Of a stretch of 64,000 nucleotides of DNA, positions 46,408-58,306 are shown piece after piece. The position numbers were made by a program, and so were the translations under genes. This DNA comes from an uncultured delta proteobacterium (GTDB taxonomy: Bacteria > Myxococcota_A > Polyangia > Polyangiales > Polyangiaceae). The notes under the pieces were generated by a model. That model did not search any database. It was not told the origin of the DNA and saw only the letters and a program-made list of their open reading frames with translations. The first letter of the stretch is position 1; each line of letters opens with the position of its first letter. The stretch is from positions 96,001 to 160,000 of the forward strand of contig CAWJCS010000002.1 of assembly GCA_963841435.1 (NCBI GenBank). The letters are read 5' to 3'.

Positions 46408-46920
46408 CTACTCGCTGCCGCCCAGCTCGCCGTCGTCCAGGTGTGCGGGCTCGGCGCGGCTGCGGCAGTCGAGACACAAGAGGCCGCGCGCCGCGTGGTG
46501 CTTGAGGTGGGTGCGCGCGCCGCAGACTTCGCAGCGGAAGTTCGCCGTCTCGTTGCCGGATGCCGCCAGCACGTCTTCGCGCGTCACGATTCCGACTGCA
46601 TGCTCGCCGCGCATGATCAACACCGAGCCCACGACTTCGTCGCTCATGCGTTGCATGGCGTCCGCGATCGTGGCCGTCACGTCGAGCACCACGGCGGGGC
46701 GCTGCAGTGCCCGCTTGACGGGCGCGTCGAGCGCGAGCTCCTCGAGGTCGCACGTGCACACCACGCCCAGCAGCTCCTTGCCGTCGAACAACGGCATATG
46801 GTGGATCCCGCACGTCTTGCAGAGCTCGAGCGCGTCGAAGACCGCGGTGTCGGCCTCGATGACGTGGAGCGGAGATTTCATGATGGATTCGAGCGACGGA
46901 GCGAATGGGGCGGCGTGCAT
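46408..46920 (-). CDS. CBS-pair protein with C-terminal Cys4 zinc ribbon
   Basis: IMKSPLHVI...IHHMPLFDGKELLGVV, VGSVLI...VGIVTREDV; CEVC...CLDC. Confidence 0.82.
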   Translation of the reverse strand: MHAAPFAPSLESIMKSPLHVIEADTAVFDALELCKTCGIHHMPLFDGKELLGVVCTCDLEELALDAPVKRALQRPAVVLDVTATIADAMQRMSDEVVGSVLIMRGEHAVGIVTREDVLAASGNETANFRCEVCGARTHLKHHAARGLLCLDCRSRAEPAHLDDGELGGSE

Positions 46921-47041: not shown

Positions 47042-48664
<1,623 letters not shown>

Positions 48665-48814
48665 GGGCGCCGACCTAGCCCCGCGCGCGCCGCAGGGCAA
48701 CCCGGGAAGCGCCCAGCGCTTCGGCGTCGCCCCGATTCGTCGGCCACTGCGCAATATCCCCGCTATCTGCGCCGAAGAACGCGGGGTTGCCCGAGCGGTA
48801 CTAGACTCTCGCGC

Positions 48815-49348
48815 ATGGAGTCCGAGTTTCGCCATTGCAGCATCTGCAAGCAGTCGATCGCGTTCGGGCAAGAGTACTATCAATGCAGCGTCTCGACCTG
48901 CAACCGGGCGAGGATCGCGCTCTACTTCTGCTCGGTGTCGTGCTGGGACGCGCACCTACCCGACGCACGCCACCGTGAGGCCTGGGCCGAGCCCGTGACG
49001 GCTCCCTCTCGCGAGGCGTGGGAGCGCGAGCAGGCCGATCAGGCGCGGCGCACGGCGGAAAAGCCCCGCGCGGCCGCGACCGCACAGGCCCCGGCGGCGC
49101 GACTGGCTTCTCCCGATGCCATCCCGCGCGAGGTGCTGATCGTCGCGTCCAAAGCCAAGGACTACGTGCGCACCCGCTCGGGCATGAACACGTCCGACGG
49201 CCTGTTCGAACGGCTCTCGGACCGCCTTCGACACCTGTGCGACCTTGCCATCGCGAGCGCCGCGCGCGACGGTCGAAAGACGGTGCTCGATCGCGATCTG
49301 CCGCGCCCGCTCACCGGTCCACGCGTGATCCGCCGCCCGCCCGCGTAG
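48815..49348 (+). CDS. Bacterial histone-fold protein with N-terminal Cys/His zinc finger (ZZ-histone-like)
   Basis: N-terminal CSIC...CSVSTC...CSVSCWDAH...H; C-terminal EVLIVASKAKDYVRTRSGMNTSDGLFERLSDRLRHLCDLAIASAARDGRKTVLDRD carrying the histone-fold RKTVxxxD signature. Confidence 0.85.
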   Translation: MESEFRHCSICKQSIAFGQEYYQCSVSTCNRARIALYFCSVSCWDAHLPDARHREAWAEPVTAPSREAWEREQADQARRTAEKPRAAATAQAPAARLASPDAIPREVLIVASKAKDYVRTRSGMNTSDGLFERLSDRLRHLCDLAIASAARDGRKTVLDRDLPRPLTGPRVIRRPPA

Positions 49349-50936: not shown

Positions 50937-52313
50937 TCACTGTGGACGGGATGGCAGGGTCGTCGGAGCGCTACCGGTGAGCGCGAAGTACGAGTCGTAC
51001 ACGAGCTGGCGCGTGTAGACGGGGTTGTGCACGCCGCCGCCGGAGCCGCGCGCGAGCAGGAGGTAGTTGTAGACGGCGCCCGCGACGTCGGCGGCGATCC
51101 CCGATTGCGAGGCGACCTTGTCCACGGCGAACTCACGATCCGCGAGATCGGTGGAGGTGAGCGGGCCGCTGCCACGCGTGAGGAAGCCCTCCGTGTTGAG
51201 CTCGACGCGAAGCTCCTGGATGTTGTCCATCATCGCCGTCTGCTGGCCGTTGATGTCGAAGCTGTCCGGGTTCGAGTGGCAGCCCTGCTTGCCGCACGCG
51301 GAGAGCTGCGGATAAAACGAGTGATTGCCGACGCCCTGGTTGGAGGCGACCGGAGGCATGTGGCAATCGATGCAGCCGTTCGCGAACGCCTGGTGCGACG
51401 ACGTCTTGTACGTCTTGCCGCTGTAGTGATAGCCGCCCTTGCCCGTGTAGATGTCGGACTGCGGCCCCTCGTGCGGGCCCCAGTAGCCGCTGAGATTGTT
51501 GGACGCGCCGATGTAGTTGGTCACGTCCTTGCGCGACTTGTGGCACCAGATGCAAGCGTTGCCCTTGCCGTAGGGGCCCGCGGGCGTGCCGTCAACGACG
51601 CCGACCGCCGAGCTCTTTTCGAGCAGCGCTTGCTTGCCCGTGCCCGTCGGAACGCGCAGCGGGAACGAGCCCGCCTGATACGTCTCACCCGTGACGTGCG
51701 GGTCGGTCGCGGGGTCAACGTCGTGGCACGTCGTGCAGTGCACGACGGCGACGGTGGCGGTCCCTGCGTAGGTGGCCTCCGTGACACGACTGTTGGTGCT
51801 GTCGAGATAGTTGTTTTGCCCCAGCGCGGATTGGGGGCTGTTCGTGCCGTTGACGTTCACGTTGCCTGCGAGCCGCTGCTCGATGCCGTCGATCGCGTGG
51901 CAGTTGCCGCACGCCGTGGCACCCGTCCAGGTGGGCACTTCTTCTCCGCCGAGGTTCGCGATGAACGTGGCGTAGTGAGTGCTCGTCTTCCACTGCTCCA
52001 CGATGCCGGTGAAGCCGTGGCACGGCGACAGGCATGACGTCTCGAGCGTGCCCGCGGGGATCTCGCCGGGTGGTCCCGGGTCGCCGGGATCGCCCGGGTC
52101 CCCCGGCACGCCCTGCGGACCGGTCTTGCCCTGGTCTCCAGGCGGCCCGAGGTCACCCTGCTGTCCCTGCCCACCCTGCGGCCCCACGTCGCCACGCGGA
52201 CCTGCCGGCCCTTGCGCGCCGGGCTTCCCGTCCTCTCCCGAGCAGGCGAGGACAAGCGATCCCAACGCGAGTGCAACCGACAAGACAGAAGCGATGTTCG
52301 AGCGCCGAAGCAT
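50937..52313 (-). CDS. Multiheme c-type cytochrome lipoprotein with collagen-like stalk (~6 hemes)
   Basis: Lipobox LVLAC; 20 consecutive Gly-X-Y triplets; CGNCH, CTTCH, CIWCH, CIDCH plus non-canonical CLSPCH and CGKQGCH. Confidence 0.88.
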
Positions 52314-52576
52314 GTGTGACCTCCGCAGCAATGTCCCCGAAGAGAATCTCCGCCCGCGAGCGCCATCGAGCGGCGCTTCCACGCGACCATCGTCTCGTAG
52401 CCCGGGAGCCTCCCGACGTTGACCCTTCATGACCGCTACTCTCGACACTCAGCAATTCGGTAAGGTCACGCACCGATGACAGCGACGTTGCGGCCGCAGG
52501 GAAAGAGAGGCGCGCAGATTTATCGCGTCGTCGCGCTAGCTTCGGAATGATTTGCGCGTCACAGGACGCGCGCAAG

Positions 52577-52861
52577 TCACCGCGCAGCGTCCGAAGGTTC
52601 CTTTTGCGGCGCCGGCGGCAAGCTGCTGCCACTCGCCCGTGCCCTGCGCCGCGCAAGATCTGCGATTACCGCCAGGAGGTAACTCGAAAACGCGAGCCCG
52701 CCGAGCACGTGCCCAATGCTCATGGCGCCAATGATTGGCAATGGCTTCGGGAACAAAATCGAGAGCACGAACAGCGAAAGCGCCCCGAGCCCGAGCAAGC
52801 ACGCGACGTTGACGAGCCGCTCGATCGGCCGCGAAATGAGGCGTCTGAACAGGCCCGTCAT
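52577..52861 (-). CDS. Small two-TM membrane protein
   Basis: Two hydrophobic helices, a His at the start of TM2 (SIGHVLGG); ATGA overlap with the NapC-like gene. Confidence 0.7.
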   Translation of the reverse strand: MTGLFRRLISRPIERLVNVACLLGLGALSLFVLSILFPKPLPIIGAMSIGHVLGGLAFSSYLLAVIADLARRRARASGSSLPPAPQKEPSDAAR

Positions 52862-53649
52862 GGTCGCAGCTCCTTTTTGCCGGGCCCTTCGCTCTCGGTT
52901 GCGGCAGCCGGTGCCCGGGCCGGGCGCTGCCCTCTGCCGCTCGCCGAGCTCGACGGCGCGCCGGGCGGGCGCGGTCTAGCGGAGCTCGCTGTCGAGCCGC
53001 TCGCGCTCGGGGGCGGGTTCGATACAGAGCTCGATTCCGCGGGCTTCGTGAAGGGATGCGCATAGCCGTGGCAGCCGGCGCTGGCGCAGCTCACCTGATT
53101 CGAGGCGAGCGCTGCCTTGAGCGATTCGTGCTCGGGGACCCGCCGCCAGTCGCTGAGCGTCGTGGTGTGGCAGTGCCGACAATTCCCGTTGTCGTACGGC
53201 TTGATGAGGTGGATTTCACGCTTTGCCTGCTCGAGTGGCATCGAGCGATAACCCCCTAGATAGTAGAGATAAACATGCCGGAGGCCGCCGAGCTTGGTGA
53301 GGGCGTAGCCGAACATGCCGTAATCGGCGTGGCACACGTAGCAGCTTCGCTCGCCGAAAAAGGCGTTTCGCGAGTGGCGGGCCGCGAGCGATTGAGAGCC
53401 CAGGTTGGCTGCGTCCGTGGCGTGGGCCCCCATGACATGGCACGAGCCGCAAAACGCGCGATCGGTCGTGTGCTCGATGCCCGTGACGGTCGAGCTCGCC
53501 GCCGAGATAGCGGGCAACACGCCCAATCCGAGCAGGAGCACGAGCTTGTAGCGCAGGTCGAGCGCAGGTTGCTTGACGAGATGGAAGACCAAGATCACCG
53601 CTGCGAGGAGCGCGGCGCCCACCGCCACGACGCTGAGGGCAAGGTCCAC
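52858..53649 (-). CDS. NapC/NirT (NrfH/CymA-like) membrane-anchored tetraheme cytochrome c
   Basis: Two N-terminal TM helices; TTDRAFCGSCHVM, CYVCH, K..GLRHVY, CRHCH, CASAGCHGYAH. Confidence 0.88.
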   Translation of the reverse strand: MDLALSVVAVGAALLAAVILVFHLVKQPALDLRYKLVLLLGLGVLPAISAASSTVTGIEHTTDRAFCGSCHVMGAHATDAANLGSQSLAARHSRNAFFGERSCYVCHADYGMFGYALTKLGGLRHVYLYYLGGYRSMPLEQAKREIHLIKPYDNGNCRHCHTTTLSDWRRVPEHESLKAALASNQVSCASAGCHGYAHPFTKPAESSSVSNPPPSASGSTASSARPRPPGAPSSSASGRGQRPARAPAAATESEGPGKKELRP

Positions 53650-53776
53650 GGCGGGTAGGGTTACCTGGAACGGGACGCGCCAACAAGGGGAGCGAGTCCT
53701 CCTTCCGATTTTGCCGTGGACGAAACGACAGCGAAGCGTGCTCGCGCACCTTCTGCGCGAGTATGATGCGTCCGCC

Positions 53777-55545
53777 GTGGATCAGACCCAGCGTCAACTC
53801 CCGACGATCGTGCTCGTTCTCGCGCTGTGTCTCGCGGCGGTGTTCGCGTGCGCGGACGGCCCCCCTTCCGAGGGCAACGTGGCGCTTGGCCGTGGTGTCT
53901 ACGTCCCCGCAAAATGGCAAACGCTGCGCGAGCTCAGCGGGCACCGCGTTCACGTTCAAGAGCGCCGCATCGCCTGCACGAAGTGCCACACGTTCAGCGA
54001 CAGCGACGTGGGCCCGGTGACGCCGGCGCGCTGCGCGGCCTGCCACGAGGACGAAGCGCGCATCGAGCACGCCACGGCGCAGGCCGCCGCGAAGTTCGGC
54101 CCCGGCACGACGGCGGACTGTCGAAGTTGCCACGCGTTCACTCTCGACGGCACGGGGCACCCGCCGCCCGACGCCGGCGACGTGCTCGGCTTCGAGCCGA
54201 GCGACTGCACGCGCTGCCACCAGTCGGCACAGGGAGACCTCCCGGCAGTGACCGTCCATGGCTCGACGACGTGCACGAGCTGCCACCACGTGCACGAGAG
54301 CACGAAGCCGGCGCCCGCGTCCTGCGAAGAGTGCCACGCCGATATCACGACGGCCCATGGCGGCCCGTCGCAGGGCGTCGTCGAACGTTGCACCACCTGT
54401 CACCAGCACCAGCACGCCGAGGCCAAGGACGCCGTGGGCAGCTGCACGGACTGCCACGCCACCCACGAGCCCAAGGTGCCACAGACCGCTCTCTTCGCCG
54501 ACGGGCACGCCGAGTGCACCGCCTGCCACCGGCCCCACGCGTTCGGCAAGAGCGAGACCGTCGCGTGCCGCACGTGCCACGAGGACGTTCATGTGCTCGC
54601 TTCGACGAAGGTCGCTGCGCATCAAGCCTGCACGAGCTGCCATGCGCCGCACGACGTGCGCGGCGCGCCGCAGCAGGCCTGCGTGCGCTGCCACTCGAGC
54701 GTCCACCCCGACCACCCCGTGAAGGGCGCCGCCGGCACCTGCGTCGGATGCCACGACCCGCATCCGACCATGGGGGCGCGCGCGCCGCTCGCGAAACCCT
54801 GCGCCTCCTGTCACCCGAACGCGCTCGCCGATCACGGCTTTCACTCCGAGATCGCTTGCCAGCACTGTCACGAGCCGCATCACTTCGCGCTCGATGGGGC
54901 CGATCGCACACCGTGCGCGGGATGCCATCAGGGCGAGGTCGCCCACGCGACGGCCCTCGCGGGCCACGCGAGCTGCGAGGGTTGCCACCGCGGGCTCCCG
55001 CACCGCCCGTCGTCGCTCAAGGTCGGCTGCGAGTCGTGCCACGCCGGGATCGTCCACGCCGCGCGCGAGGGTCACGAGAAATGCCTCGGCTGCCACGAGC
55101 CACACGGCGGAGCTCTTCAGACGCCGTGCGGGCAATGTCACAAGGCGGAGCTCGCGAGCGCGCCGCGCGGGCACCAGACCTGCACGGGCTGCCACGATCC
55201 GCACACCGGGTCCCCGGCCGCAAAGCCCTGCGAGACCTGCCACGAAAAGGAAGCGGCGTCGGCCCACGGATTGATTCGGAGGGGGCTGCCTCGGGTGCCA
55301 CCGCCCGCACGGCCCCGGGGGTCTCGCTCAGCCCAAGGCGTGCACGAGCTGCCACGACGTTCGGAACCCTGCCCGGCCTTCACCGCGAGGTGAAGCACCA
55401 GGCGTGCAATCGCTGTCACACGGGGCACGGCGCCGCTGACGCCGCACCTCGCGCCGTGTGTGTCGCCTGCCACACTGATCGCGCTCGCCACTTCCCCGAC
55501 GCCGAGCGCTGCACGGGTTGCCACATCTTCAACCAGCACCGCTAG
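53777..55545 (+). CDS. Very high-heme c-type cytochrome lipoprotein (27 CxxCH after repairing two +1 frameshifts at ~55276-55285 and ~55360)
   Basis: Lipobox AVFAC; 22 CxxCH in the first frame, CLGCH and CTSCH in the middle frame, CNRCH, CVACH and CTGCH in the last frame. Confidence 0.88.
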
Positions 55546-55560: not shown

Positions 55561-57258
55561 TTAGTTCGGCAGCTCGAACGTGACCTGGCCGTTAACGTGC
55601 AGATCGGGCCGGACGAACGTGACGTTGTCCTTGTCGAGGTCCTTGTGGCACGCGCTGCAGTCGGGTGATTGGTTGACGTAGGGATGCGGCCGGGGCGGCG
55701 GCAGGCCGTGGCAGGTGCCGCACTTCGCCTCGCTGCCGTTGACGCGCGTCCAGCTCGGAGTCGTGTGAGACCCGCCGGATCCGTACGCCGACGGGAACAC
55801 GGCGCCATGGCACGCGGACTCGACGCACCGGCCGTTCTCGTAGCGTGGTGTCGCGCCGAACGAAAGCGCGGCGCCCGAGAAGACGACCTCGGCCGGCAGG
55901 TCCGAATCGAGGTGCCCCTTTGCGAGCACGTCGGCGGGTACTTCGTGGCACTCGGCGCAAGGCACGGGGCGCGCGCGGCCGTTTTCCACGAGGTGCGCCT
56001 GATGGGCGCCGACGGCCGCTTGGGACGTGAGCGTCTCGCCGAGCACGCCCAGCGGTGGCGCAGCGTTCTTCTTGCCCCCGTGGCACGCGCTGCAATCGTC
56101 CGTGACCACGACATCGACGATGCCGTTGACGTGACGCGCTCGATCGACGATGTGCATCGAGTCGTTGACGACGTTGGCGTGACAGTTTTCGCACCGCGCG
56201 CTCCGCGGGTGCGGGGGCGGGGGCGGCGCACCGTGGCAGCTCGTGCAGGAAAGCTCGGTCGCTTCCGTCCAGAGCGGTGACGTGCCGTGGCGTTCGCCGG
56301 GGCCGTGGCAGTACGTGTCGCTGCAGGTCGCGAGCTCGTGGTCCCAGCGCGGCGCATGGTCGCGCGTCGCGGCCACTCCCGTCAGCGTGACCTCGGCAGG
56401 CGGCTCGTCGATGTGCGTTTCGTCCTCGACGCGCTCGGGCACGCGGTGACATTCGGTGCACTCGAGCGGGCGCCCCGCGCGGCCGCCGCCGAGGTGCGCC
56501 GCGTGCGCCCCCACGCCCAGGGACGAGACCTCCATGTGTCCCAACGTGTCGAGCGGCGGCGCCGGGTTCTCGCCTTCGCCGTGGCAGAGCGTGCACGTGT
56601 CGGCGCCCGCGCGATACTCGACCGTGCCGTTCACGTGCAGCTCGGGCGCGATGATGCGCTGATTTTCGTCGACCACGTCAGCGTGGCACACCGAGCAGCG
56701 CGTCGACGCTGGGTGCGGCGCCGGCGGCGGCAGCGCGTGGCAAGTTCCGCACGCCTCGCCGCTCGACCTCGGCAGTGACCACACGGCGCGAGCACCGCGA
56801 TGGCAGTAGCTGTCCCTGCAGGTCTGACCCGCCGCGTCGTAGCTCGGGTGGTGGTGGTCCGTGCGCGCGAGCGGGCCGAACACGAGCTCGGCGGGGCGTG
56901 CGCTGTCGGCGTGTCCCGGCGAATCCACGCGCTCGGGCACGACGTGACATTCCGTGCACGCGAACGCCGGGTGCGTCGCCGACCCCTCGAGGTGAATCGA
57001 GTGGGCACCGACCCCCGGGTAGCTCGGGTCCGTGGCGCCCGAGAGGTCGGCGGGCGGGGCCGAGCGCGCGAGAAAATCCCCCGGCCGCGCGGGATCGCCG
57101 TGACAGCCCGTGCAGCGCTCCTCGCGCGCAGGCTCCGGCCGCTCGCGCGACTCGAGACAGCTCGGCAAAAGCGCGGCGAGCGCGCCCGCCGCCATGAAGA
57201 GCGCGAGCGTCGCGCTCGCGAGGCGCCGCCGACGGGAAGAGCGCTCTACGTCAGCCAT
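55561..57258 (-). CDS. CxxxxCH/CxxCH-domain multiheme cytochrome lipoprotein (15 heme motifs, three repeated modules)
   Basis: Signal ending LLPSC; 12 CxxCH and 3 Cx4CH (CRDSYCH, CSDTYCH, CVESACH); repeated GAH..H and HVNG motifs. Confidence 0.88.
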   Translation of the reverse strand: MADVERSSRRRRLASATLALFMAAGALAALLPSCLESRERPEPAREERCTGCHGDPARPGDFLARSAPPADLSGATDPSYPGVGAHSIHLEGSATHPAFACTECHVVPERVDSPGHADSARPAELVFGPLARTDHHHPSYDAAGQTCRDSYCHRGARAVWSLPRSSGEACGTCHALPPPAPHPASTRCSVCHADVVDENQRIIAPELHVNGTVEYRAGADTCTLCHGEGENPAPPLDTLGHMEVSSLGVGAHAAHLGGGRAGRPLECTECHRVPERVEDETHIDEPPAEVTLTGVAATRDHAPRWDHELATCSDTYCHGPGERHGTSPLWTEATELSCTSCHGAPPPPPHPRSARCENCHANVVNDSMHIVDRARHVNGIVDVVVTDDCSACHGGKKNAAPPLGVLGETLTSQAAVGAHQAHLVENGRARPVPCAECHEVPADVLAKGHLDSDLPAEVVFSGAALSFGATPRYENGRCVESACHGAVFPSAYGSGGSHTTPSWTRVNGSEAKCGTCHGLPPPRPHPYVNQSPDCSACHKDLDKDNVTFVRPDLHVNGQVTFELPN

Positions 57259-58306
57259 GGCAATACCGGCACATGCCGTCGAACACGCCGCGGCTCGTGC
57301 GGAACGTGCCGGGCGGGTGGGGGTTGCCGCCGTAGCCGCCAACCTTGTGGCAACGGATGCAGTTGGTCGCAGGGCCCTGATCGTGACAGCCGGCGCAGGC
57401 GAGGATGTCGCGCCGTGCCTCGATGCCGTGCTGGCTGTGCAGGCGCGTGTCGTTGCCCACCCAGCCCGGCGGGTGGGGGCTCCGTCCCATGAGCAGCCCG
57501 GCGCTCACGCCGCGCGCGGCGTGGCAGCCGTCGCAGCTCGAGACCTCGTGGCACGCGAGGCAGCGCGTTGGTGACGCCGAGGCCTCGAGCGCGTGGCGCG
57601 TGAGAAAATCCGCACGGTGCACGAAATGCCGTTCGAGCTCATCCGGGTGGCGGAGCTCGACGCGCATCACCTGAGACGTGTCGTGACAATCGTCGCAGTC
57701 GGACTGGCCGTGGCAGGCCTGGCAAAGCTTCCCCTCGTGCGGCACGTACTCGCCGTGCCGCCGCGCGAAATCGCCGTCGTGGCGCAGGAAGGTCGCCGGC
57801 ATGAGCTTTACGAGGTCTTCCTGCTCGTGGCACGGCACGCAGGTTCCGGCATTCCATTCGTCTCGATGCTGGTGGCAGCCGAGGCAAGTGCTCATGGGCG
57901 GCAGGAGCGGCTTTTCATCCTCGACGACGCCCGCGTGGCACGGCACGCACTGCCCCCTGAGCTCGGGCATCGCCAGGTGCTTCGAGTGGTCGAAAGTGAT
58001 GCTGCCGTACGGTTGCGCCGGCAGGACGGCGAGCACGCGTTCGACGTCTCCCTCGTCGTCATGGTGGCAACGGTCGCACTGGGTCTTGGAGGGCAGGTGG
58101 TGCGCCCGGTCAACGGCGCTCGCGGTGTGGCAGCTGTTGCAGTTCAGGCACGAGGGCTGCCCGGGCTTGCCACACGCGACCTCCGCGAGGTGCGTGCGGT
58201 GCGGGAAGCGCGCGGGGCGCGGGTCGCTGCAGGCGGCGAGCACGGCGGCGCCGAGCACGACCACGAGCAAGAGCAAAACGAGCGGTTCCAGACGCCGCGA
58301 GCTCAC
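57251..58306 (-). CDS. Dodecaheme cytochrome c3/c7-like lipoprotein
   Basis: GTG at 58306 after a purine-rich tract; VSSRRLEPLVLLLLVVVLGAAVLAAC lipobox; FPH..H and FDHSKH; 12 CxxCH motifs. Confidence 0.85.
   Translation of the reverse strand: MSSRRLEPLVLLLLVVVLGAAVLAACSDPRPARFPHRTHLAEVACGKPGQPSCLNCNSCHTASAVDRAHHLPSKTQCDRCHHDDEGDVERVLAVLPAQPYGSITFDHSKHLAMPELRGQCVPCHAGVVEDEKPLLPPMSTCLGCHQHRDEWNAGTCVPCHEQEDLVKLMPATFLRHDGDFARRHGEYVPHEGKLCQACHGQSDCDDCHDTSQVMRVELRHPDELERHFVHRADFLTRHALEASASPTRCLACHEVSSCDGCHAARGVSAGLLMGRSPHPPGWVGNDTRLHSQHGIEARRDILACAGCHDQGPATNCIRCHKVGGYGGNPHPPGTFRTSRGVFDGMCRYCHG

What the first reader, a model, noticed from the sequence alone, without database searches (positions are those of the whole stretch)
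48815..49348. Bacterial histone fused to an N-terminal zinc finger, hidden at the end of a shadow ORF
Seen: a 177-aa protein with Cx2C-x12-Cx4C-x9-Cx3CWDAH-x5-H, an Ala-rich linker, and a domain at 49130-49300 (EVLIVASKAKDYVR...GMNTS...LS......C..AI.SA..DGRKTVLDRD), followed by a basic Pro/Arg tail. From memory, this domain closely resembles Bdellovibrio histone Bd0055 (EVLVVTSKVK...MNTS...DGRKTVMARD), and zinc-finger (ZZ-type) histones have been catalogued computationally in bacteria, but I know of no established function for them. Inference: a chromatin protein whose Zn finger may read peptides, nucleic acid or redox state. The ORF track only shows it as the tail of 47468..49348.
Basis: partly seen in the sequence, partly recalled or inferred. 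Interest (0 to 1): 0.85.

Follow-up and report, generated by a model that had tools for sequence, protein, structure and literature searches.

The report
ZZ-type zinc-finger bacterial histone gene
This is a real, conserved gene for a small myxobacterial protein that joins a two-zinc finger to a bacterial histone fold; the family is already catalogued but its function has never been tested.

Summary
Window 48815..49348 (+) encodes a 177-aa protein with the stated Cys/His pattern, an Ala-rich linker, a histone-like domain and a basic tail. The longer + ORF is the antisense shadow of a divergent ABC-F gene.

The C-terminal domain matches the solved Bdellovibrio histone HBb/Bd0055 (phmmer E 5e-8; family profile 4e-16; Foldseek TM 0.82-0.88, rmsd 1.2-1.3 A). 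It keeps RxTxxxxD and 8 of 10 HBb DNA-contact residues. A homodimer prediction passes (ipSAE 0.49 against 0.00).

All eight zinc ligands of the N-terminal module are invariant. Its nearest solved folds are eukaryotic ZZ domains, but only weakly (E 0.1-0.3), and Pfam ZZ does not match.

The protein belongs to the "ZZ histones" of Schwab et al. 2024. The family is large (2806 clusters; at least 459 species genomes, mostly Myxococcota) and has no conserved gene neighbour. I found no experimental study.

New side observations:
- 38 of 121 close relatives carry two tandem histone folds.
- A histone-less Bdellovibrionota family keeps the same zinc module and ends in P-K/R-V-I-L-R-R. This resembles the window protein's subclade-specific PRVIRR tail.

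Verdict: new member of a known kind, function open, moderate interest.

The parts
48815..49348 (+). Complete gene for the ZZ-type zinc-finger histone (177 aa plus stop at 49346-49348).
   Evidence: Translation. Coding GC profile 0.67/0.57/0.84. 2806 homologues at E<=1e-3. N-terminus agrees with the closest relatives.
48815..49060 (+). Zinc module, residues 1-82. It is a ZZ-like core with ligands C8, C11, C39, C43 (C4 site) and C24, C29, H47, H53 (C2H2 site; site assignment follows the paper's scheme). A conserved RHR-D/E-AWAE strand and a helix at 66-82 follow.
   Evidence: All eight ligands are invariant in 33 and in 82 aligned sequences. AF2 pLDDT is 80-96 over residues 1-80. The best non-histone Foldseek hits are p62 ZZ domains, E 0.1-0.3, TM by target 0.52-0.65. 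The module is homologous to that of the histone-less family (hhalign prob 100%, E 2e-43, 85 columns).
49061..49126 (+). Ala/Pro-rich flexible linker, residues 83-104.
   Evidence: AF2 pLDDT is 54-63, with residues 87-93 below 50. Mean pairwise identity is 0.33, against 0.73-0.74 in the two domains.
49127..49300 (+). Alpha3-truncated histone fold, residues 105-162: alpha1 111-122, L1 (MNTS, 124-127), alpha2 129-151, L2 (RKT, 154-156), one-turn alpha3 158-161. The RxTxxxxD motif is R154/T156/D161.
   Evidence: phmmer against PDB: HBb 8cmp/8fvx E 5e-8. Family profile E 4e-16. Foldseek TM by target 0.82-0.88, rmsd 1.2-1.3 A, 44% identity. Homodimer prediction ipSAE 0.49 against 0.00.
49301..49345 (+). 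Basic Pro/Arg C-terminal tail, residues 163-177, with the subclade-conserved motif P-R-V-I-R-R (169-174).
   Evidence: The tail is present in only 6 of 82 short-form relatives plus the fragment P0080. It resembles the P-K/R-V-I-L-R-R C-terminus of the histone-less ZZ family. The strict motif occurs 0 times in 939 control ORFs. AF2 pLDDT is 57-64, so it is not docked in the monomer model.
48665..48814 (.). 150-bp divergent intergenic region between the ABC-F gene and the histone gene. It holds a perfect 7-bp inverted repeat, GAAGCGC-CCA-GCGCTTC, at 48706-48722.
   Evidence: The ABC-F start is inferred at GTG 48664. The repeat is within I1 and can be read. No sigma-70-like promoter or intrinsic terminator was found, and no Rfam match.
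47042..48664 (-). Neighbouring divergent ABC-F-type ATPase gene. It is not part of the feature; its antisense frame creates the long shadow ORF 47468..49348.
   Evidence: Pfam ABC_tran (two stretches) plus ABC_tran_Xtn. GC profile 0.68/0.42/0.87.

Best explanation
The gene encodes a member of the ZZ-histone family of Myxococcota and Bdellovibrionota.

Two chains pair through their C-terminal alpha3-truncated histone folds into a handshake dimer like HBb/Bd0055. The L1-L2 loops and the start of alpha1 carry the same Ser/Thr/Lys/Asn/Arg residues that contact the DNA backbone in HBb. I therefore expect the dimer to bind DNA without sequence preference in the minor groove and to bend it. I do not expect it to build nucleosome-like or tetrameric particles.

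Each chain also carries an N-terminal module on a flexible linker of about 22 residues. This module should hold two zinc ions, one in a C4 site and one in a C2H2 site, in a ZZ-like fold.

I read this module as a tethered interaction module that brings a conserved ligand to the DNA-bound dimer, or links dimers to each other. A peptide or protein ligand is the most likely. The subclade's own C-terminal PRVIRR tail is one candidate. On this reading the protein is a low-copy adaptor or specialised nucleoid protein, not a bulk chromatin component.

Shown by computation: domain identities, ligand invariance, and the predicted fold and dimer. Inferred: zinc binding, DNA binding and bending, low abundance (by analogy with Bdellovibrio), and the nature of the zinc module's ligand.
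For: Histone half:
- phmmer to HBb E 5e-8; family profile E 4e-16. The profile also hits HLp at 5.7e-9, HmvA at 2e-3 and archaeal histones at 0.03-0.7.
- The AF2 model (mean pLDDT 78.5, pTM 0.48) has helices 111-122, 129-151 and 158-161.
- Foldseek to HBb: TM by target 0.82-0.88, rmsd 1.2-1.3 A over 57 columns.
- Of the ten HBb residues with most DNA contacts in PMC11317129 (passages), 8 are identical: N125, R160, S112, T156, S127, K113, K115, K155. One is conservative (K16 to R119) and one differs (T8 to A111). The mapping uses the alignment. The RD clamp (R154-D161) and D152 are kept.

Dimer:
- ipSAE 0.49, best of 3 controls 0.00. This mark was reached by 20 of 30 proteins solved as pairs of one chain and by 1 of 23 solved as single chains.
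- The runs agree in at least 89% of contacts, and partner pLDDT is at least 68.
- L1 (124-127) pairs with L2 (154-158) of the other copy.
- Independent support: 38 of 121 close relatives carry two tandem histone folds in one chain.
- The FtF tetramer residues (R48 and N52 of the FtF profile) are S148 and D152 here.

Zinc module:
- All eight ligands are invariant.
- It is as conserved as the histone fold (0.73 against 0.74 mean pairwise identity).
- The nearest named folds are peptide-binding ZZ domains.
- It exists without any histone fold in 119 of the 120 best hits of a Bdellovibrionota family. Of those 119, 112 end in a conserved V-I-L-R-R-type tail.

Low-copy role: Schwab et al. report very low expression of the B. 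bacteriovorus ZZ histone. Hocher et al. call Bd3044 the less-abundant histone-fold protein, which cannot compensate for loss of Bd0055.
Against: - No experiment exists for any family member.
- The dimer pass may reflect the model's memory of the solved HBb dimer. It shows likeness, not binding.
- The ZZ assignment is weak. No Foldseek hit for the module has E<=1e-3. Pfam ZZ matched 0 of 33 members. The PDB profile search found no ZZ chain at E<=10.
- Schwab et al. state that the peptide-pocket residues of eukaryotic ZZ domains are not conserved. The positions I recall as equivalent to p62 D129/D147/D149 are S9 and S25-T28 here.
- The tail is not docked in the monomer model (pLDDT 57-64).
- The tail occurs in only a small subclade, so it cannot be the family-wide ligand.
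- T8 of HBb is Ala here, and Val in most relatives.
- The zinc core of this protein has net charge 0, which fits no ligand class in particular.
Confidence: 0.6

Rival explanations
1. The zinc module is a second nucleic-acid-binding site. The protein would then contact DNA or RNA at two kinds of site: the histone dimer and the two zinc modules. It would act as a bridger, or as a factor with some sequence or structure preference.
For: Besides the ligands, the invariant surface residues are Ser/Thr/Asn/Arg-rich (C-S-V-S-T-C-N-R, R52, R54). This is the residue class that contacts phosphates in HBb. The family's zinc core has a median net charge of +3, range 0 to +7. An F-C-S motif is literally present, with a sub-threshold Pfam zf-FCS hit (E 0.51) and a Foldseek hit to a MYM/TRASH finger (E 0.64). 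No conserved partner gene lies nearby, which fits a universal ligand such as DNA.
Against: All the zf-FCS/TRASH signals are below significance. The zinc core of this particular protein has net charge 0. The nearest solved folds are peptide readers.
Confidence: 0.25
2. The Cys-rich zinc module is a redox or zinc-availability switch. Oxidation or zinc loss would unfold it and change DNA binding or oligomerisation of the histone dimer.
For: There are six invariant cysteines in two zinc sites. Cys4 zinc sites act as redox switches in other bacterial proteins (general knowledge; not tested here).
Against: Nothing in the sequence or context points to it. No redox genes are conserved nearby. The strict conservation of non-ligand surface residues suggests a macromolecular ligand instead.
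Confidence: 0.07
3. The histone fold serves only as a dimerisation device, as in TAF or NF-Y-type proteins. The protein would then have no nucleoid role.
For: Schwab et al. caution that not all prokaryotic histone-fold proteins need be genome organisers (discussion passage). The Bdellovibrio relative is expressed at a low level.
Against: Eight of ten HBb DNA-contact residues and the RKT/RD-clamp motif are kept, and most are invariant across the family. This would not be needed for dimerisation alone.
Confidence: 0.07
4. The ORF is not a gene, only a chance open frame in GC-rich DNA.
For: It lies inside a long shadow ORF. No promoter, terminator or clear Shine-Dalgarno sequence was detected.
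Against: The GC3 profile is coding. There are 2806 homologues with invariant ligand and histone motifs. Both domains give confident fold predictions.
Confidence: 0.01

Closest known systems
ZZ histones (alpha3-histone family) of Schwab et al. 2024, Nat Commun, PMC11390915. The exemplar is D0LYE7 of Haliangium ochraceum. The B. bacteriovorus member is probably Bd3044; this is my inference.
   Same: The architecture is the same: an N-terminal zinc finger with a C4 and a C2H2 site, and a C-terminal bacterial-dimer-like alpha3-truncated histone fold. Seven of the eight ligand positions given for D0LYE7 (C20, C23, C36, C41, C51, H59, H65) match this protein with a constant offset of 12. The lineage is also the same (Myxococcota and related).
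   Different: This protein and six close relatives add a 15-residue basic tail containing PRVIRR. They lack the R-R/K-I/V-V linker motif found in 67 of 121 relatives. The paper's eighth ligand (C53) does not fit the offset; C43 here would correspond to position 55. I did not compare directly with the D0LYE7 sequence because it was not at hand.
HBb / Bd0055, the 'bacterial dimer' histone of Bdellovibrio bacteriovorus (PDB 8cmp, 8fvx, 9ezz, 9f0e).
   Same: About 44% identity over 57 residues. It has the same short alpha2 and one-turn alpha3, the RD clamp with the extra Asp, the RKT loop and the MNTS loop. Eight of ten DNA-contact residues match, and a dimer is predicted.
   Different: HBb is a stand-alone, highly expressed protein of about 60 aa that is probably essential. 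This protein carries an 82-residue zinc module, a linker and a tail. By analogy with Bd3044 it is probably of low abundance.
Eukaryotic ZZ domains (p62/SQSTM1, HERC2, p300, ZZZ3, plant BIG, KCMF1).
   Same: Small modules with two zinc sites. They are the best non-histone structural matches (p62 TM by target 0.52-0.65). They are also the nearest named clusters for a homologue's Atlas model (TM by query 0.26-0.42).
   Different: There is no sequence-level match (Pfam ZZ 0 of 33; no PDB ZZ chain at E<=10). The acidic pocket that grips a free N-terminus in p62 (D129, N132, D147, D149; PMC6197226) has no evident counterpart. The module is also extended by a conserved strand and helix.
Face-to-face (FtF) histones such as HLp of Leptospira (PDB 9qt0).
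   Same: The same alpha3-truncated fold (profile E 5.7e-9; Foldseek TM by target 0.84).
   Different: The tetramerisation residues of the FtF profile (R48, N52) are S148 and D152 here, so a DNA-wrapping tetramer is not expected (read from the sequence).
Unnamed histone-less ZZ-module proteins of Bdellovibrionota (for example P0145 and P0278; 110-140 aa).
   Same: The zinc module is homologous, including the post-ZZ strand and helix (hhalign prob 100%, E 2e-43, 46% identity over 85 columns). Both end in a basic C-terminal motif of the same type a few residues before the end.
   Different: They have no histone fold (119 of 120). Their tail is P-K/R-V-I-L-R-R, one hydrophobic residue longer than PRVIRR. 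In a quick tree of the zinc module they group apart from the window's subclade, with weak support.

Membership tests
ZZ histones (Schwab et al. 2024) | N-terminal zinc finger with one C4 and one C2H2 site (eight ligands). | tested here: met
   C8, C11, C24, C29, C39, C43, H47 and H53 are invariant in A1 (33 sequences), A2 (82) and A3 (32). The pattern is present in 120 of 121 sequences.
ZZ histones (Schwab et al. 2024) | C-terminal bacterial-dimer-like alpha3-truncated histone fold. | tested here: met
   Alpha3 is residues 158-161 (4 residues). The paper's definition is 3-4 residues.
ZZ histones (Schwab et al. 2024) | Direct sequence relationship to a named member (D0LYE7 or the B. bacteriovorus protein). 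| not tested
The only check was that the ligand spacing agrees at 7 of the 8 published positions.
ZZ histones (Schwab et al. 2024) | Binding of two zinc ions. | not testable with these tools
   Needs metal analysis of purified protein.
Alpha3 histones, 'bacterial dimer' type (HBb) | RxTxxxxD motif / RD clamp and RKT loop. | tested here: met
   R154, K155, T156 and D161, with R154, T156 and D161 invariant. D152 corresponds to HBb D49.
Alpha3 histones, 'bacterial dimer' type (HBb) | Forms a handshake dimer and nothing larger. | tested here: inconclusive
   The dimer prediction passes: 0.49 against 0.00. The mark was reached by 20 of 30 solved homodimers and 1 of 23 solved monomers. The pass may come from memory of the HBb structure. 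Higher oligomers were not modelled. The FtF tetramer residues are absent (S148, D152).
Alpha3 histones, 'bacterial dimer' type (HBb) | Non-specific DNA binding and bending. | not testable with these tools
   Only the conservation of 8 of 10 contact residues could be checked.
Eukaryotic ZZ domain (Pfam PF00569) | Match to the family profile. | tested here: not met
   No PF00569 hit for P0001 at E<=1, nor for any of 33 relatives at E<=0.01. No ZZ chain in PDB at E<=10 with the family profile.
Eukaryotic ZZ domain (Pfam PF00569) | ZZ fold with two zinc sites. | tested here: inconclusive
   Foldseek gives p62 ZZ E 0.1-0.3 with TM by target 0.52-0.65, and HERC2 E 0.8. The Atlas structure search of homologue P0278 gives ZZ clusters at TM by query 0.26-0.42. 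These are the best named matches, but they are weak.
Eukaryotic ZZ domain (Pfam PF00569) | Acidic pocket that binds a free peptide N-terminus. | tested here: not met
   The p62 pocket is D129, N132, D147 and D149 (PMC6197226). The corresponding positions are S9 after the first Cys and S25-T28 between the third and fourth Cys; this placement is recalled, not aligned. Schwab et al. also report that the pocket is not conserved.
zf-FCS / MYM / TRASH zinc fingers | Match to the family profile. | tested here: not met
   PF06467 E 0.51, 10.6 bits against a cut-off of 22.4. Foldseek 2das E 0.64.
Face-to-face (FtF) histones | Tetramerisation residues R48 and N52 of the FtF profile. | tested here: not met
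   Counting back from R154 (= profile position 54), the residues are S148 and D152 (sequence; definition).

The most novel reading that the evidence does not exclude
The zinc module and the short C-terminal peptide P-K/R-V-I-(L)-R-R form a conserved two-part unit that does not need a histone. It stands alone in hundreds of Bdellovibrionota proteins. In the window's subclade a histone fold sits between the two parts.

The peptide would be the cognate ligand of the ZZ-like module, as eukaryotic ZZ domains grip short peptides. DNA-bound dimers, each with two modules and two tails, could then link head-to-tail into a cooperative coat or bridge. That would be a peptide-reader/histone-tail system of bacterial origin.
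Probability: 0.12. Interest if true: 0.7.

Novelty: new member of a known kind. Interest (0 to 1): 0.35.

Why it matters
Bacterial histones were recognised only recently, and only HBb and HLp have been studied experimentally. ZZ histones are the one bacterial class that joins a histone fold to a reader-like zinc finger, the domain type that reads histone tails in eukaryotes. Their function is unknown.

This window adds a clean, full-length example. The searches also sharpen the question in four ways:
- The family is far larger than a handful of entries (2806 clusters; at least 459 species genomes).
- It has no operon partner.
- It comes in three architectures: zinc module alone, with one histone fold, and with two.
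- A short basic C-terminal motif travels with the zinc module whether or not a histone fold is present.

These points give concrete constructs for testing what the zinc module binds.

Tried and rejected
**Family and motif scans with no significant result**
- Pfam and NCBIfam on the protein gave nothing significant.
- PHROGs and PADLOC gave nothing for the protein. The neighbouring ABC-F gene's PADLOC 'mad3' hit is generic ABC-ATPase similarity.
- Promoter/terminator scan, Rfam and tRNA scans gave nothing.

**Partner and context searches**
- Stand-alone histone partner. Family HMMs for the histone domain and the zinc module, run against the six-frame translation of the whole window, found only this gene; the next best hits were E 1.3 and E 0.63. 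In 79 of 80 related loci no second histone lies within about 8 kb.
- Conserved neighbourhood. ORFs of 80 loci plus the window were clustered. No neighbour family occurs in more than 17 of 80 loci. That family is Ser/Thr kinases, which are so abundant in Myxococcota that I judge the rate to be chance (my estimate, not computed). The window's own neighbours (ABC-F, CBS protein, membrane protein, TPMT) are not conserved next to relatives.

**Architecture and phylogeny**
- Larger fused forms. The 'longer' search gave one 337-aa protein, which is an over-called N-terminus. The zinc-module profile search over all lengths listed nothing above 290 aa among the best 150 of 305 hits; the other 155 were not shown.
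- I considered that the linker motif R-R-I-V of most relatives is the same element as the tail. hhalign did not align them, so I treat them as separate.
- The tree of the zinc module used the quick method only; the careful search did not finish. Support is weak, so no direction of evolution is claimed.

**Could not be run**
- AF2 of the histone-less family to see whether the tail docks on the module.
- Foldseek against viral structures.
- Cluster-member look-up.
- Atlas search of the window protein's own N-terminal part.
- The HERC2 ZZ paper is not held.
Full report
**1. What is in the sequence**

Window 48815-49348 (+) translates to a 177-aa protein, P0001. Residues 83-104 are Ala/Pro-rich. 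The stretch EVLIVASKAKDYVR...DGRKTVLDRD covers residues 106-161. The tail is LPRPLTGPRVIRRPPA.

The ORF list shows this protein only as the end of a 626-aa + ORF, 47468..49348. The upstream part of that ORF is antisense to a minus-strand ABC-F ATPase gene (Pfam ABC_tran twice plus ABC_tran_Xtn). GC by codon position is 0.87/0.41/0.69 there and 0.67/0.57/0.84 over 48815-49348. The latter matches other genes of this 69.6% GC window.

The ABC-F gene most likely starts at GTG 48664. That leaves a 150-bp divergent intergenic region. No sigma-70-type promoter, intrinsic terminator or Rfam element was detected there. This says little for a GC-rich myxobacterium.

**2. It is a real, conserved gene**

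A word-indexed search of 5.8 billion proteins gave 2806 proteins at E<=1e-3 among 3416 candidates. The closest are 97%, 80% and 63-69% identical. The named hits are Polyangiaceae or Myxococcota MAG proteins, and JGI labels several 'histone H3/H4'.

The eight-ligand pattern is present in 120 of 121 sequences (the query plus the 120 listed hits). The exception is an N-terminally truncated fragment.

The 80 loci kept have their best segment 44-60% identical to the window protein. By record title:
- 60 are named as Myxococcota lineages (Polyangiaceae, Polyangiales, Sorangium, Myxococcales, Myxococcota, Kofleriaceae, Nannocystaceae/Nannocystineae).
- 10 are 'delta proteobacterium' or 'Deltaproteobacteria'.
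- 5 are generic Proteobacteria or Pseudomonadota.
- 5 are other labels: Bdellovibrionota, Binatota, Planctomycetaceae, Rickettsiales and 'bacterium'.

**3. The C-terminal half is an HBb-type histone fold**

- phmmer against PDB sequences aligns residues 105-162 with the Bdellovibrio histone HBb/Bd0055 (8cmp, 8fvx) at E 5e-8.
- A profile of 82 relatives raises this to 4e-16. It also finds HLp of Leptospira (5.7e-9), 9f2c (9e-6), HmvA (2e-3) and archaeal histones (0.03-0.7).
- AlphaFold2 on that alignment gives mean pLDDT 78.5 and pTM 0.48, with helices 111-122, 129-151 and a one-turn 158-161. This fits the published definition of alpha3-truncated histones, an alpha3 of 3-4 residues (PMC11390915, passage).
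- Foldseek against PDB puts five HBb chains first (TM by target 0.82-0.88, rmsd 1.2-1.3 A, 56-57 columns, 43-44% identity, E 2-4e-3). HLp follows at E 0.1. No hit reached E<=1e-3 because the domain is short.
- R154, T156 and D161 form the RxTxxxxD motif and are invariant.

The alignment gives an offset of 103 between HBb and P0001 numbering. I applied it to the ten HBb residues with the most DNA contacts in PMC11317129 (passages). Eight are identical here: N125, R160, S112, T156, S127, K113, K115 and K155. K16 becomes R119, and T8 becomes A111.

The two residues that make face-to-face tetramers (R48 and N52 of the FtF profile) are S148 and D152. The 'bacterial dimer' type is therefore the closer model.

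Pfam's histone model (CBFD_NFYB_HMF) hits 9 of 33 relatives at E<=0.01 but not P0001 itself.

**4. Dimer**

Two copies of residues 98-177, given with the family alignment, were folded three times. The score was 0.49, with the best of 3 controls at 0.00. This mark was reached by 20 of 30 proteins solved as pairs of one chain and by 1 of 23 solved as single chains. The runs agree in at least 89% of their contacts, and the partner's pLDDT is at least 68.

The closest contacts join L1 (124-127) of one copy to L2 (154-158) of the other, and alpha2 to alpha2. This is the handshake arrangement. Because the HBb dimer is solved, the pass may come from memory. It shows likeness, not binding.

There is independent support from evolution. 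Of the 121 sequences, 38 are 228-286 aa long and carry two tandem histone domains after one zinc module. This is what one expects if the single-domain forms act as dimers.

**5. The N-terminal half**

Residues 1-82 are modelled with pLDDT 80-96: short strands, two short helices, a strand at 58-62 and a helix at 66-82. All eight ligands are invariant. So are non-ligand residues such as V26, S27, R54 and P64; T28, F38, W44 and R52 are invariant or nearly so in each alignment. The module is as conserved as the histone fold (mean pairwise identity 0.73 against 0.74), while the linker is at 0.33.

The best non-histone Foldseek matches are ZZ domains:
- p62: E 0.1-0.3, TM by target 0.52-0.65.
- Plant BIG: E 0.29.
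- KCMF1: E 0.69.
- HERC2: E 0.83.

LIM and MYM/TRASH fingers appear at similar E-values. The ESM Atlas model of a histone-less homologue (P0278) also has eukaryotic ZZ-domain clusters as its nearest named neighbours, at TM by query 0.26-0.42.

At the sequence level there is no link. Pfam ZZ matched 0 of 33 relatives. No ZZ chain in PDB appeared at E<=10 with the family profile. Only a sub-threshold zf-FCS hit was seen (E 0.51).

The p62 pocket for a free N-terminus is D129, N132, D147 and D149 (PMC6197226). By my recalled placement of those residues relative to the cysteines, this protein has S9 and S25-T28 there. Schwab et al. also report that the pocket is not conserved. 'ZZ-like' is therefore a fair description of the fold, not a demonstrated membership.

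**6. What is known**

Schwab et al. 2024 (PMC11390915; passages seen; one source-data file searched) define 'ZZ histones' within the alpha3 histones. [quoted passage not shown] The exemplar is D0LYE7 of Haliangium ochraceum.
- They report very low expression of the B. bacteriovorus ZZ histone.
- They give no function.

Seven of their eight ligand positions match this protein with a constant offset of 12. The eighth (C53) does not; I would expect position 55.

Hocher et al. 2023 (PMC10627809, passages) describe Bd3044 as the longer, less-abundant second histone-fold protein of B. bacteriovorus. It is present in 37% of Bdellovibrionota genomes and cannot readily compensate for loss of Bd0055. 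That Bd3044 is the ZZ histone is my inference. A 2025 preprint reports that bd0055 and bd3044 expression peaks late in the growth phase.

Full-text searches for 'ZZ histone(s)', for 'bacterial histone' with 'zinc finger' and 'Myxococcota', and for 'Bd3044' found no experimental study of a ZZ histone. bioRxiv supplements and the PDF supplementary figures could not be seen. They may bear on whether the variants below were already noted.

**7. Architectures of the zinc module**

A profile of the module alone (32 sequences) was scored against 1.84 billion representatives. It gave 305 proteins at E<=1e-3 (243 at <=1e-10). The best 150 are all 69-290 aa long; the remaining 155 were not listed. Of the 150:
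- 61 have one histone domain.
- 9 have two.
- 80 have none by my local HMM. Many of these look truncated or frameshifted.

A search for longer relatives of P0001 found only one 337-aa protein, which is an over-called N-terminus.

A genuine histone-less family does exist. P0145 (125 aa, on a 737-kb contig) has 801 relatives at E<=1e-3 among 803 candidates. The best 120 are mostly 102-147 aa. The named ones are labelled Bdellovibrionota, Bdellovibrionales, Bacteriovoracia or Oligoflexia (one record also carries a Methylotenera label), and they lie on contigs up to 909 kb. Of these 120, 119 lack a histone domain. Their zinc module is homologous to that of the ZZ histones over 85 columns (hhalign probability 100%, E 2e-43).

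**8. The tail**

Of those 119 histone-less proteins, 112 end with a hydrophobic-hydrophobic-basic-basic motif within the last 20 residues. Anchored logos give S/A-A/P-P-K/R-V-I-L-R-R followed by 2-6 residues in most, and up to 10 (113 of 119 anchored).

The window protein ends ...G-P-R-V-I-R-R-P-P-A. The core P/T-R-V-I-R-R is kept in all seven sequences of its subclade while the flanking residues vary. It is absent from the other 76 short forms in A2 and from the 80 genome loci.

A strict form of the motif occurs:
- 0 times in 939 candidate ORFs (302,223 residues) from the loci and the window.
- In 7 of 121 ZZ-histone sequences.
- In 54 of 119 histone-less proteins.

In a quick maximum-likelihood tree of the module (69 rows, 65 columns, weak support, careful search unfinished), the window subclade is one clade (SH-aLRT 91) among Myxococcota short forms. 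Of the 27 histone-less rows, 24 group elsewhere. The shared tail is therefore not explained by close kinship of the modules.

Most other short forms (67 of 121) carry a different basic motif, R-R/K-I/V-V, at a fixed distance before alpha1. The window subclade has A-R-L-A-S there. In the monomer model the tail is not docked (pLDDT 57-64), but only 6 of the 82 alignment rows had a tail. The test I wanted, AF2 on the histone-less family, could not be run.

**9. Context**

The family HMMs found no second histone or zinc module anywhere in the 64-kb window. They found none in the flanks of 79 of the 80 related loci.

Clustering of neighbouring ORFs found no family in more than 17 of 80 loci. That family is Ser/Thr kinases, which I judge to be at the chance level for Myxococcota (my estimate, not computed).

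The window's neighbours are a CBS-domain protein, the ABC-F ATPase, an unassigned membrane-like protein, a TPMT-type methyltransferase and multihaem cytochromes. None is conserved beside relatives. The gene thus appears to be monocistronic, without a dedicated partner.

**10. How it most likely works**

*Shown by computation.* The protein has two well-conserved domains joined by a variable, low-confidence linker. The histone domain is HBb-like, with the DNA-contact residues kept, and is predicted to dimerise. The zinc module has eight invariant ligands and also exists on its own.

*Inferred.* The dimer binds the DNA backbone non-specifically and bends it, as HBb does. The two zinc modules, each holding two zinc ions, swing on the linkers and bind a conserved ligand.

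I commit to a peptide or protein ligand as the most likely (about 0.4 of the probability for this step). The nearest folds are peptide readers, and a conserved short peptide motif travels with the module. A nucleic-acid ligand comes next (about 0.3), because of the invariant Ser/Thr/Asn/Arg surface and the lack of any partner gene. A redox or metal switch (about 0.1) and other roles take the rest.

Low abundance is inferred from the Bdellovibrio data only.

**11. Verdict**

- The protein is a new member of a known, computationally described family whose function is open.
- The tail shared with histone-less relatives and the tandem-histone forms are modest new leads. I did not find them in the passages I read.
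- Interest is 0.35: a specialist would not be surprised by the gene itself.
- The boldest reading not excluded is that the module reads the tail and links DNA-bound dimers. I give it about 0.12.

Noticed in passing
Relatives P0007-P0020 and others (not in the window): 38 of the 121 closest family sequences (228-286 aa) carry two tandem histone domains after one zinc module, a single-chain pseudodimer. The main text of Schwab et al. 2024 does not mention doublet ZZ histones: 'doublet' and 'tandem' occur only in its reference list. Its supplementary figures could not be read.
   Followed up: partly
Relatives P0145 and P0271-P0388 (not in the window): A family of 102-147-aa (most of the best 120) Bdellovibrionota proteins has the same zinc module and no histone fold (119 of 120). 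Most end in a conserved P-K/R-V-I-L-R-R motif (112 of 119). They have no precomputed Pfam domain.
   Followed up: partly
Family linker, equivalent to window 49100-49126: 67 of 121 relatives have a basic motif, R-R/K-I/V-V, at a fixed distance (61-62 residues in 49 of the 67) before the RxT loop. The window's subclade has A-R-L-A-S there and carries a basic motif at the C-terminus instead.
   Followed up: partly
window 48706-48722: A perfect 7-bp inverted repeat with a 3-nt spacer (GAAGCGC-CCA-GCGCTTC) lies in the 150-bp divergent region between the ABC-F gene and the histone gene. It could be an operator, or it could be chance in GC-rich DNA.
   Followed up: no
window 50937-52448 (-), 52858-53781 (-), 53552-55393 (+), 55561-57504 (-): This is a cluster of cytochrome genes: a NapC/NirT-type gene (52858-53781) and two cytochrome c7/c3-type genes (53552-55393 and 55561-57504). 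The 503-aa protein at 50937-52448 has only a collagen triple-helix Pfam match; its translation shows several CxxCH haem motifs, read by eye.
   Followed up: no
window 46408-46920 (-): A 170-aa CBS-domain protein has a Cys-rich C-terminal stretch (CxxC...CxxC) that looks like a small zinc ribbon.
   Followed up: no
PMC11390915, Fig. 4 legend: The published C4 site of D0LYE7 is given as C20, C23, C51, C53. With the constant offset of 12 that fits the other seven ligands, the fourth cysteine would be at position 55, not 53. This may be a slip in the legend or a real difference in D0LYE7. It was not checked against that sequence.
   Followed up: no
L001, L005, L009, L029, L054, L072, L074 and others: A Ser/Thr protein kinase gene lies within about 8 kb of the ZZ-histone gene in 17 of 80 loci, and directly beside it in about six. 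I judge this to be the background rate for kinase-rich Myxococcota.
   Followed up: partly
L064:3844-3900: This is the only one of the 80 loci with a second, weak histone-domain match (E 1.9e-4). It lies about 1.9 kb downstream of the ZZ-histone gene, in a MAG labelled Binatota.
   Followed up: no
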